From IMG/VR virus record IMGVR_UViG_2529293061_000008: DNA of 21,669 nt, one strand, 5' to 3'. The DNA comes from a virus. Its lineage: Duplodnaviria; Heunggongvirae; Uroviricota; Caudoviricetes. Numbering within the stretch: the first letter of the stretch is position 1; the number at the start of each line of letters is the position of its first letter. This document shows positions 7,136 through 7,329 of the stretch, one piece after another. The notes under the pieces are model-generated. The model had not been told where the DNA came from. It saw only the letters and a program-made list of their open reading frames with translations, and made no database searches. A program made the position numbers and the translations under genes.

Positions 7136-7270
7136 GAAACGTTGCTGGCGTCTGAACTTGCTTCTGGCGTCAGCAAGGTTGAACAACGAGCCCTTGCGAG
7201 GCGTTAGCTCTGTAGTGCATGTCTATGCCGCATGAGATCGCATGATCGTTTGAGGATCGTTTTTGCTAAG

Positions 7271-7295
7271 GCCCGCCAGAACTGGCGGGCTTTTG
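7271..7295 (+). terminator. Rho-independent terminator (GCCCGCCAG aa CTGGCGGGC + TTTTG)
   Basis: Perfect 9-bp GC-rich stem, 2-nt loop, T-run; ends the tum-like/dinI transcript. Confidence 0.65.
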
Positions 7296-7329
7296 CGTAG
7301 ATCATGCAGGTGCATGAAAACCACTACAT

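What the first reader, a model, noticed from the sequence alone, without database searches (positions are those of the whole stretch)
7236..7303. Cluster of four GATC (Dam) sites immediately upstream of the probable cos site
GATC occurs at 7236, 7244, 7255 and 7300 within 68 bp, two as GATCGTTT, where about 0.3 is expected by chance. The phage encodes its own Dam. In phage P1, clustered Dam sites make packaging-site cleavage methylation-dependent; a similar control of cos/terminase or of the adjacent terminator is conceivable.
Basis: partly seen in the sequence, partly recalled or inferred. Interest (0 to 1): 0.4.

Follow-up and report, generated by a model that had tools for sequence, protein, structure and literature searches.

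The report
Dam-site pair inside P2-type cos
Two of the four GATC (Dam methylation) sites beside this P2-like phage's DNA-packaging cut site form a conserved, exactly spaced pair inside the region the packaging enzyme probably recognises, which suggests but does not prove that packaging senses DNA methylation as in phage P1.

Summary
GATC occurs at 7236, 7244, 7255 and 7300, and this is the densest GATC cluster in the window. Density alone is weak evidence (scan-statistic p about 0.05-0.14).

The window is a Fels-2-like P2-family phage. Its 19-nt cohesive end is 7340-7358, and its own Dam gene is 2436-3350.

The four sites lie in a roughly 125-bp arm that keeps the same register in about 150 distinct P2-like and P4-like cos regions. 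The arm contains TGCAT-type repeats R1-R3, a CCAG..CTGG hairpin, and repeats R4'/R4.

The four sites are not equivalent:
- **7244 and 7255** form a GATC-N7-GATC pair. It is kept in 68 distinct arms as 27 sequence variants, with every spacer position varying. It evolves about 5-fold slower than its spacer, as slowly as the repeats.
- **7236 and 7300** sit in fast-evolving columns and are specific to some lineages.

GATC-rich arms also occur in P2-like phages of Aeromonas and Pasteurella. They are absent from P2, P4, and the Ralstonia and Chitinimonas elements sampled.

The phage Dam is not required: 14 arms with two or more GATC have no Dam homologue in the DNA sampled upstream.

Best reading (confidence 0.45): the pair is a methylation-read element of the packaging site. 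No experiment supports this yet.

The parts
2436..3350 (+). Phage Dam, a D12-class N6-adenine DNA methyltransferase, probably GATC-specific
   Evidence: Pfam PF02086 at E 2.4e-76. E. coli Dam structures match at E 4e-73, with DPPY and the loop segment LNR.GY.GLCRYN aligned.
7215..7221 (+). R1, a GTGCATG repeat of the cos recognition arm
   Evidence: Repeat family D5. Conserved in register across P2-like and P4-like arms. 1-2 Fitch steps per column.
7229..7235 (+). R2, a CGCATGA repeat
   Evidence: Repeat family D6. 0-1 Fitch steps per column.
7236..7239 (.). GATC-1, a lineage-specific site in the variable R2-R3 spacer
   Evidence: Present in 9 of 36 unique Fels-type arms. 8-10 Fitch steps per column.
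7239..7245 (+). R3, a CGCATGA repeat; its bases 7244-7245 (GA) are the first two bases of GATC-2
7244..7247 (.). GATC-2, first member of the conserved GATC-N7-GATC pair
   Evidence: Present in 33 of 36 Fels-type arms. The pair occurs in 68 of 150 unique arms as 27 variants. 1 Fitch step per column.
7255..7258 (.). GATC-3, second member of the pair; it ends 17 nt before the CCAG..CTGG palindrome
   Evidence: Present in 34 of 36 arms. 0-2 Fitch steps per column. The Aeromonas-type arms show the same 17-nt distance.
7265..7296 (+). GC-rich hairpin with a CCAG-N-CTGG core, terminator-like in this lineage (followed by TTTT)
   Evidence: Inverted repeat I1. RNA fold of 7225-7320 gives -39.7 kcal/mol, z -3.75. 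The CCAG..CTGG core is conserved across all cos types.
7300..7303 (.). GATC-4, a lineage-specific site abutting the inverted repeat R4'
   Evidence: Present in 11 of 36 Fels-type arms. Its columns take 8, 11, 0 and 3 Fitch steps. GATC recurs at this position in other lineages.
7302..7308 (-). R4', TCATGCA, an inverted copy of the repeat motif
   Evidence: Inverted repeats I4 and I6. Conserved in at least 90% of arms.
7311..7317 (+). R4, TGCATGA, the start of the core shared by all P2-like and P4-like cos sites
   Evidence: 0 Fitch steps. Near-invariant in all 112 unique arms. Part of the 55-bp P2/P4 homology (PMC9594776).
7340..7358 (+). cosN, the 19-nt cohesive-end sequence GGCGTGGCGGGGATACGAG
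   Evidence: Homology to the annotated P2 cosL/cosR. The SEN8 and EtG genome records end at window 7339.
9197..10237 (-). gpQ, portal protein
   Evidence: ORF list. Annotated as portal in a 100%-identical relative and in Fels-2.
10234..12000 (-). gpP, large terminase subunit
   Evidence: ORF list. Annotation of relatives.
14055..14705 (+). gpM, small terminase subunit and candidate reader of the arm
   Evidence: Pfam PF05944 at E 5e-40.

Best explanation
The four GATCs lie in the terminase-recognition arm of a P2-type cos site. This roughly 125-bp arm lies between the early/replication genes and the cut at 7340.

Two of the sites, 7244 and 7255, form an old, exactly spaced GATC-N7-GATC pair. 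The pair overlaps the third TGCAT-type repeat and ends 17 nt before the central CCAG..CTGG hairpin. The two sites lie one helical turn apart, so they face the same side of the DNA.

I propose that they are Dam sites, methylated by the host Dam and reinforced by the phage Dam. I further propose that a protein acting at cos reads their methylation state. That protein could be the gpM/gpP terminase itself, or host SeqA bound to the hemimethylated pair. Under this model, freshly replicated or under-methylated circles are not committed to cos cleavage until they are fully methylated.

The sites at 7236 and 7300 are recent additions in some lineages. At most they reinforce the effect.

What is shown: the position of cos, the register of the arm, the selective conservation of the pair, the recurrence of GATC-rich arms in other lineages, and the close similarity of the phage enzyme to E. 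coli Dam.

What is inferred: that the arm is the terminase-binding side, that the sites are methylated in vivo, and that methylation state is read at all.
For: 1. The arm is conserved without gaps across about 150 unique P2-like and P4-like cos regions, while the DNA on both sides is unrelated cargo.

2. GATC-N7-GATC occurs at the same register in 68 unique arms as 27 distinct variants. All seven spacer positions and the 3' flank vary, and the two tetranucleotides do not.

3. On a neighbour-joining tree built from the other columns (64 arms), the GATC columns take 1.0 parsimony step each. The spacer takes 5.0, the next six bases 5.3, the arm on average 4.1, and repeats R1-R4 take 0-1.2.

4. 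The Aeromonas-type arm has no TGCAT repeats at the R1-R3 positions. It carries three AARGGATC repeats, conserved in four distinct sequences. The last GATC sits 17 nt before the CCAG..CTGG palindrome, as in the window. Its GATC density is 22 per kb against 5.3 per kb in the flanks.

5. A Pasteurella testudinis prophage has five GATC in its 135-bp arm, against 0.5 expected.

6. Arms from Chitinimonas (0 observed, 3.7 expected) and Ralstonia have none. By my own knowledge, Dam, SeqA and MutH are confined to a subset of Gammaproteobacteria that includes Enterobacterales, Aeromonadales and Pasteurellales.

7. The small terminase gpM of the Aeromonas GATC-arm phages is no closer to this phage's gpM (40-41% identity) than P2's is (about 48%). 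A shared gpM subtype therefore does not explain the shared GATC element.

8. A precedent exists. Cleavage of P1 pac depends on Dam methylation of its TGATCA/G hexamers (PMC10028697).

9. Host Dam is reported to be limiting for high-copy DNA (bioRxiv 10.1101/2020.06.22.160242). This gives the phage Dam a plausible role.
Against: - No experiment or paper linking Dam to P2-family packaging was found.
- P2 itself, P4-like satellites, an Erwiniaceae subclade with the same cos core, and many 186-like arms package without the pair, although their hosts have Dam.
- Three prophages with apparently intact Q and P genes have lost one or both GATCs of the pair: L099, L125 and L147.
- The A and G before the second GATC are also fairly conserved, so a longer protein motif (AGGATCG) is possible.
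- The phage Dam and the pair are separable.
- Many of the sequences are related, so the number of independent lineages is small, roughly three to five.
Confidence: 0.45

Rival explanations
1. The pair is a sequence-specific contact for a phage or host protein that binds the cos arm, for example the small terminase gpM or an accessory factor. GATC happens to be the core of its half-sites, and Dam methylation plays no regulatory part.
For: The pair adjoins repeat R3, and the 11-bp spacing suits a dimer. Some subclades extend it to a 17-bp palindrome, TGATCCAAATTGGATCA in L121. A7253, G7254 and G7259 are partly conserved. In Aeromonas the unit is AARGGATC, a longer repeat sitting where R1-R3 normally are.
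Against: Outside GATC, the flanks and spacer vary through all four bases. Palindromy beyond GATC is absent in the window's own lineage. gpM relatedness does not track the presence of the element. In Dam-positive hosts, any reader of GATC always meets N6-methyladenine, so indifference to methylation would be a coincidence.
Confidence: 0.3
2. The cluster is chance plus shared ancestry. The GATCs are neutral passengers in a conserved packaging region and have no function of their own.
For: Density alone gives p about 0.05-0.14. The sites at 7236 and 7300 behave as neutral sequence. Several related arms work without any GATC. Three prophages with intact Q and P genes have lost part of the pair.
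Against: The pair evolves about 5-fold slower than the bases between and after it, on the same tree. It persists through 27 sequence variants. GATC-rich arms recur in Aeromonas and Pasteurella lineages whose arms are otherwise unalignable with this one.
Confidence: 0.12
3. The GATCs regulate transcription rather than packaging. They could form a Dam-dependent switch of the pap/agn43/gtr/opvAB type for the adjacent cargo genes, or they could modulate the hairpin terminator at 7265-7296.
For: Three GATCs within 23 bp resemble the layout of OxyR- or Lrp-type phase-variation switches (my own knowledge). A terminator-like hairpin lies 7 bp downstream. A promoter-like site for the cargo lies at 7401-7429.
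Against: The conserved block ends at about 7364, and the genes on both sides differ between relatives that keep the pair. The cargo carries its own promoter beyond cos. The cos cut separates the GATCs from the cargo in virion DNA. The T-run of the hairpin is not conserved in subclades that keep the pair. I did not test for any OxyR or Lrp motif.
Confidence: 0.06

Closest known systems
Phage P1 pac site: seven TGATCA/G hexamers whose Dam methylation gates cleavage by PacA/PacB (Sternberg and Coulby, as summarised in PMC10028697)
   Same: Dam sites are clustered inside the DNA that a terminase must recognise. The phage encodes its own Dam. A protein-bound central element separates the site clusters from the cut. 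The proposed logic is the same: bind first, then cut only when the DNA is methylated.
   Different: P1 is a headful (pac) phage with an unrelated PacA/PacB terminase. Its hexamers flank the cut on both sides (four and three). Here all sites lie on one side, 37-104 bp from a cos cut that leaves 19-nt ends. Only 7243-7248 matches TGATCG, and only two sites are conserved. Methylation dependence is demonstrated for P1 and untested here.
P2/P4 cos site (Ziermann and Calendar 1990, Gene 96:9; not held)
   Same: The cohesive-end family is the same (16 of 19 bases identical to P2). The 55-bp core, the position between gene A and gene Q, and the in-register TGCAT repeats and CCAG..CTGG hairpin are all shared.
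   Different: P2 and P4 have no GATC in the arm. At the R2-R3 spacer P2 reads GAGATTGCATTAAG where the window reads GAGATCGCATGATCG. P2 as a whole avoids GATC (observed/expected 0.20) and has no dam gene.
Lambda cosB (R3-I1-R2-R1: gpNu1 repeats with an IHF site beside cosN)
   Same: Both have a one-sided array of short repeats with a central architectural element beside the nicking site, the likely landing pad for the small terminase.
   Different: Lambda's terminase and repeats are unrelated in sequence. No role for Dam sites in lambda cosB is known to me. Which protein binds the P2-type arm has not been established here.
SeqA-bound hemimethylated GATC pairs, as in oriC and dnaA promoter sequestration
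   Same: There are two GATCs one helical turn apart (11 bp) in hosts that have Dam and SeqA. From my own knowledge, this geometry is what SeqA needs.
   Different: The element is not at a replication origin (by homology to P2, the origin lies inside gene A). Only two to four sites are present, far fewer than at oriC. SeqA binding was not tested.

Membership tests
P2-type (Peduoviridae) cos site | 19-nt cohesive-end sequence of the GGCG(A/T)GGCGGGG... family | tested here: met
   7340-7358 reads GGCGTGGCGGGGATACGAG against P2's GGCGAGGCGGGGAAAGCAC. The SEN8 and EtG genome records end at 7339.
P2-type (Peduoviridae) cos site | Position between the gpA replication gene (plus cargo) and the gpQ/gpP packaging genes | tested here: met
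   gpA ends at 6549, and Q and P are at 9197-12000 on the minus strand. This is the hotspot layout described in PMC9122126.
P2-type (Peduoviridae) cos site | Conserved core shared with P4 (TGCAT.AAAA ... GCGGGC + cos + GCGCGC) | tested here: met
   In-register alignment with P2, P4 and about 150 unique arms. The 55-bp homology is quoted in PMC9594776.
P2-type (Peduoviridae) cos site | Actual cleavage and packaging by gpM/gpP | not testable with these tools
   Requires a transduction or in vitro cleavage assay.
P1 pac-type methylation-gated packaging site | Multiple TGATCA/G hexamers on both sides of the cleavage point | tested here: not met
   Only 7243-7248 (TGATCG) fits. The others read AGATCG, GGATCG and AGATCA. 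All four lie on one side of the cut.
P1 pac-type methylation-gated packaging site | Cleavage requires Dam methylation of the sites | not testable with these tools
   Requires dam-positive versus dam-negative packaging assays, or in vitro assays with defined methylation.
P1 pac-type methylation-gated packaging site | PacA/PacB-type headful terminase | tested here: not met
   The terminase is P2-type: gpM matches PF05944 and gpP is annotated as the large subunit in relatives. The phage has cohesive ends.
SeqA target (hemimethylated GATC pair) | At least two GATC on the same helical face, within about three turns | tested here: met
   7244 and 7255 are 11 bp apart. The pair spacing is 11-12 bp in all lineages that have it.
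SeqA target (hemimethylated GATC pair) | Preferential binding of SeqA to the hemimethylated form | not testable with these tools
   Requires gel-shift assays or ChIP.
Dam-dependent phase-variation switch (pap, agn43, gtr, opvAB type) | GATCs inside regulator sites that stay linked to the promoter of the regulated gene | tested here: not met
   Relatives keep the GATC pair while the genes on both sides are replaced. The cargo promoter-like site lies beyond cos.
Dam-dependent phase-variation switch (pap, agn43, gtr, opvAB type) | Match to OxyR or Lrp binding consensus over the GATCs | not tested
   No motif scan was run.
Dam (D12-class, GATC-specific) methyltransferase, for the gene at 2436-3350 | D12 methyltransferase fold with the DPPY motif and close similarity to E. 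coli Dam across its DNA-recognition loop | tested here: met
   PF02086 at E 2e-76. Aligns with E. coli Dam over residues 23-280 at E 4e-73, with DPPY and LNR.GY.GLCRYN conserved. GATC specificity itself is inferred.

The most novel reading that the evidence does not exclude
Across P2-family phages of Dam-positive hosts (Enterobacterales, Aeromonas, Pasteurella), a phased GATC pair or array in the cos recognition arm acts as an epigenetic checkpoint. Terminase assembly or cos cleavage proceeds only on fully Dam-methylated circles. The methylation state is read either directly by the terminase or through SeqA occupying the hemimethylated pair. This would be the first methylation-gated cos site, and a counterpart to P1 pac evolved in an unrelated terminase system.
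Probability: 0.3. Interest if true: 0.65.

Novelty: new variant of a known kind. Interest (0 to 1): 0.45.

Why it matters
Methylation-gated packaging is known for one headful phage, P1. If a cos phage family also reads Dam methylation at its packaging site, three things would follow.
- It would explain why many Fels-2-like P2 phages carry a Dam gene of unknown purpose.
- It would link phage DNA maturation to replication timing.
- It would matter for P2/P4-based cosmid and transducing-particle engineering, because the roughly 160-bp block rather than the 55-bp core may set efficiency and host dependence.

The block is common. It is present in 1,277 of 5,426 complete E. coli genomes. The prediction can be tested with a simple cosmid transduction assay.

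If the pair turns out to be an ordinary protein-binding motif, the result still maps a conserved element in the packaging arm of this phage family.

Tried and rejected
- **Density statistics as proof.** Rejected: p is only 0.05-0.14 after allowing for window size.

- **Co-occurrence with the phage Dam gene.** The two-by-two table is 22, 14, 3 and 18. The association is positive but follows phylogeny. The 14 Dam-less arms with two or more GATC show that the phage gene is not required. Dam was looked for only as a homologue of this enzyme in the DNA upstream of cos.

- **Correlation with small-terminase type.** gpM identity does not group the GATC-arm lineages together, so this test was inconclusive on which protein reads the arm. 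The C-terminal RGRP tail separates P2/186-type gpM from the rest but does not track GATC.

- **P4-like satellites as a natural experiment.** All eight satellites in the sample have P2-type or AGAGCAT-type cos and no GATC. None had a Fels-type cos, so no test was possible.

- **Literature.** I found no paper linking Dam or GATC to P2-family cos. Ziermann and Calendar 1990 and the Christie and Calendar review are not held. My memory of a 125-bp minimal cos is unverified. The Klebsiella methylome paper says nothing about prophage cos. One literature search was wasted on ambiguous terms.

- **Decay as the explanation for lost GATCs.** Only two of the five arms with a disrupted pair are in clearly decayed prophages (L146, L161). 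Three have Q and P genes that look intact.

- **Cargo regulation or phase variation.** Rejected because the flanking genes change while the pair stays.

- **Minus-strand ORF 7223-7429 (68 aa).** It overlaps cos and the hairpin, and I treated it as spurious.

Full report
**What the window is.** The window is a P2-family (Peduoviridae) phage or prophage of the Fels-2 type.

- The segment 7100-7364 is 100% identical to Escherichia phage vB_EcoM-813R9. The sub-block 7217-7364 is 93-96% identical in Fels-2, RE2010 and many Klebsiella prophages, whose flanking DNA is unrelated.
- The gene order follows the P2 plan:
  - Dam, 2436-3350 (PF02086, E 2e-76)
  - an unassigned ORF, 3347-4177
  - gpA, about 4174-6549
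  - a small ORF within 6601-6891
  - DinI/Tum, 6902-7135
  - non-coding DNA, 7136-7510
  - two cargo genes, 7511-9162
  - gpQ (9197-10237) and gpP (10234-12000) on the minus strand
  - the late operon, including gpM at 14055-14705 (PF05944)

**The observation.**
- GATC is at 7236, 7244, 7255 and 7300. The sites at 7244 and 7255 both read GATCGTTT.
- It is the densest cluster in the window. The next tightest four-site span is 214 bp.
- Random placement of 85 sites in 21.7 kb gives at least 4 in 68 bp in 14% of trials, at least 3 in 23 bp in 18%, and both in 5%.
- Overall GATC content is ordinary: 85 observed against 77 +/- 8 in shuffles. Density by itself therefore does not establish anything.

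**The cos site.**
- 7340-7358 reads GGCGTGGCGGGGATACGAG. It matches P2's annotated 19-nt cohesive end GGCGAGGCGGGGAAAGCAC at 16 of 19 positions.
- Two deposited linear genomes, SEN8 and EtG, end exactly at window position 7339.
- Cos lies in the gpA-gpQ interval, which is known as a cargo hotspot (PMC9122126).

**Anatomy of the arm.** I collected 120 IMG/VR loci with the cos core and 65 hits from species-representative genomes. Roughly 17 chance hits are expected for an 18-mer in that collection, and hits lacking the TGCAT.AAAA element upstream were set aside as chance or unclassified. I added P2, P4, Fels-2 and single phages of Aeromonas, Ralstonia, Erwinia and Yersinia.

About 135 bp on the gpA side of the cut align without gaps across about 150 unique sequences. 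The conserved elements, in window coordinates, are:

| Element | Coordinates | Sequence or feature |
|---|---|---|
| R1 | 7215-7221 | GTGCATG |
| R2 | 7229-7235 | CGCATGA |
| R3 | 7239-7245 | CGCATGA |
| Hairpin | 7265-7296 | GC-rich, CCAG-N-CTGG core |
| R4' | 7302-7308 | TCATGCA, inverted copy |
| R4 | 7311-7317 | TGCATGA, followed by AAAACC |
| Pre-cos | to 7339 | AAGCGGGCA |
| cosN | 7340-7358 | 19-nt cohesive end |

P4 itself has R1-R3. The motif architecture therefore extends beyond the 55-bp P2/P4 homology quoted from Ziermann and Calendar (PMC9594776).

I infer that this one-sided repeat array is the terminase-recognition arm, functionally like lambda cosB. My recollection that about 125 bp is the minimal P2 cos could not be checked, because the paper is not held.

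**The four GATCs are not equivalent.**

*Frequency.* Among 36 unique Fels-type arms from IMG/VR, the sites occur as follows:
- 7244 in 33
- 7255 in 34
- 7236 in 9
- 7300 in 11

*The pair.* Over all arms, GATC-N7-GATC at this register occurs in 68 unique sequences as 27 distinct variants. Spacer positions 1-5 each take all four bases, positions 6 and 7 take three, and the base after the second GATC takes all four.

*Rates.* Parsimony steps per column, on a neighbour-joining tree built from the other columns of 64 unique Fels-type arms:

| Columns | Mean steps |
|---|---|
| GATC 7244-7247 | 1.0 |
| GATC 7255-7258 | 1.0 |
| Seven spacer bases, 7248-7254 | 5.0 |
| Next six bases, 7259-7264 | 5.3 |
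| Whole arm | 4.1 |
| R1-R4 | 0-1.2 |
| GATC 7236-7239 | 9.0 |
| GATC 7300-7303 | 5.5 |

The central pair is therefore under purifying selection as strong as on the repeats. The outer two sites look like recent gains in some lineages.

*Losses.* Five homologous arms have point-disrupted pairs. Two are in decayed prophages with a broken Q or P gene. Three are in prophages whose Q and P genes look intact. The pair is therefore not absolutely required.

**Independent lineages.**
- *Aeromonas type.* In arms with cos core GGCGTGGCGGGGTAACGAT, the R1-R3 positions hold no TGCAT repeats. They hold three AARGGATC repeats, conserved in four distinct sequences whose flanks vary. The last GATC lies 17 nt before the CCAG..CTGG palindrome, the same distance as in the window. 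GATC density is 22 per kb in the arm against 5.3 per kb in the flanks.
- *Pasteurella.* A Pasteurella testudinis prophage has five GATC in its arm, against 0.5 expected.
- *Other enterobacterial lineages.* These carry GATC at other arm positions, 43 and 33 bp before the GCGGGC motif, and 86 bp before it in a Yersinia-like group.
- *Arms with no GATC.* P2, P4-like satellites, an Erwiniaceae subclade with the same cos core, Chitinimonas (0 observed, 3.7 expected) and a Ralstonia phage.
- *Host range.* By my own knowledge, Dam, SeqA and MutH are confined to the gammaproteobacterial orders that include the hosts of the GATC-rich arms. The sample of hosts outside those orders is small.

**The phage Dam.**
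- The enzyme aligns with E. coli Dam over residues 23-280 (E 4e-73), with DPPY and the long loop segment conserved. GATC specificity is therefore likely.
- Among loci that cover the region upstream of gpA:

| | Dam present | Dam absent |
|---|---|---|
| Two or more GATC in the arm | 22 | 14 |
| Fewer than two GATC | 3 | 18 |

- The association follows phylogeny, and the pair clearly persists without a phage Dam. Host Dam would suffice.
- One genome-wide contrast is striking. P2, which has no dam gene, avoids GATC 5-fold (25 observed, 127 expected, observed/expected 0.20). This window has observed/expected 0.78. Likewise, P2-type loci have 1.1 GATC per kb and Fels-type loci 3.4 per kb.
- The phage Dam therefore probably serves the whole genome. 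The cos pair would be one client of it, not its reason for existing.

**Which protein reads the pair?**
- gpM of the Aeromonas GATC-arm phages is 40-41% identical to this phage's gpM. P2's is about 48%. A shared gpM subtype therefore does not explain the shared element.
- This weakly favours a reader common to the hosts (Dam methylation, SeqA) or convergent evolution. It is not decisive.

**Mechanism proposed.** The pair is a Dam-methylated element of the recognition arm. Its methylation state gates the commitment to cos cleavage.
- N6-methyladenine at 7245, and at 7246 on the other strand, lies within or immediately beside R3.
- The second GATC lies one helical turn away, on the same face of the DNA.
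- Either the terminase needs the methyl groups, as PacA does at P1 pac (PMC10028697), or SeqA occupies the hemimethylated pair on freshly replicated circles and holds the terminase off until Dam finishes.
- Host Dam is reported to be limiting for high-copy DNA, which gives the phage enzyme a role.
- Every step beyond conservation is inference. I put 0.45 on a methylation-read function, 0.30 on a methylation-indifferent protein site, about 0.12 on neutral hitch-hiking, and 0.06 on a transcriptional role.

**Comparison with known systems.**
- The locus is a member of the P2-type cos family. All sequence-level criteria are met.
- It is not a member of the P1 pac class. The hexamers, the two-sided layout and the PacAB terminase are all absent. 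It may still work like P1 pac.
- I found no report of Dam sites in P2-family cos regions.
- I rate it a new variant of a known kind, of moderate interest, and directly testable with a cosmid transduction assay.

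Noticed in passing
whole window versus L201 (P2, NC_001895): P2, which has no dam gene, avoids GATC 5-fold (25 observed, 127 expected, observed/expected 0.20). No other 4-bp palindrome is comparably depleted. This dam-encoding relative has observed/expected 0.78. IMG/VR loci show the same split: 1.1 GATC per kb for P2-type against 3.4 per kb for Fels-type. Encoding a Dam seems to go with relaxed GATC avoidance.
   Followed up: partly
window 7511-9162: The two cargo genes next to cos match the PADLOC candidate defence system PDC-M03. Protein A matches at E 2e-122 and has weak similarity to the HipA C-terminal kinase domain. Protein B matches at E 7e-93 and has a HIRAN domain. 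They lie in the known P2 cos-proximal defence hotspot (PMC9122126). A promoter-like site is at 7401-7429.
   Followed up: partly
L191, L196-L199 (Aeromonas-type cos arms), 126 to 95 bp before the cos start: Three AARGGATC repeats occupy the positions where P2-like arms normally have the TGCAT repeats R1-R3. Two other loci with a closely similar cos core (L195, L200) have TGCA-type repeats and no GATC. The distal repeat set of the arm appears to be exchangeable.
   Followed up: partly
L151 (Pasteurella testudinis prophage), 135 bp before cos: Five RGATCT motifs and TGCGT-type repeats lie in the cos arm, against a locus background of 3.4 GATC per kb.
   Followed up: no
window 7274-7287 and the same register in all loci: A CCAG-N(2-4)-CTGG palindrome at the centre of the arm is conserved across essentially all P2-like and P4-like cos types. 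Only in the Fels-2 type is it part of a terminator-like hairpin followed by a T-run. It may be a binding site for a dimeric or architectural protein.
   Followed up: no
gpM, window 14055-14705, versus relatives: P2-type and 186-type small terminases end in a basic tail with an AT-hook-like RGRP(K/P)K motif. Fels-type and Aeromonas-type gpM lack this tail.
   Followed up: no
window 3347-4177: A 276-aa ORF lies between dam and gpA, overlapping both ends, and has no Pfam match.
   Followed up: no
L003 1425-1485 (right end of P2): The annotated start sites of the P2 old-tin mRNA (minus strand) lie about 25-60 bp from the R1-R3 repeats. In P2, a leftward cargo promoter therefore abuts the packaging arm.
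   Followed up: no
window 7205-7365: This cos block occurs in 1,277 of 5,426 complete E. coli genomes, usually once per genome. Eight of the 1,324 places are on plasmids.
   Followed up: no
window 7240-7247 and 7300-7307: An exact 8-bp inverted repeat, GCATGATC / GATCATGC, brackets the hairpin. Together with it, the repeat gives a long stem in the RNA fold (-39.7 kcal/mol, z -3.75). It exists only in the subclade that has the GATC at 7300.
   Followed up: partly
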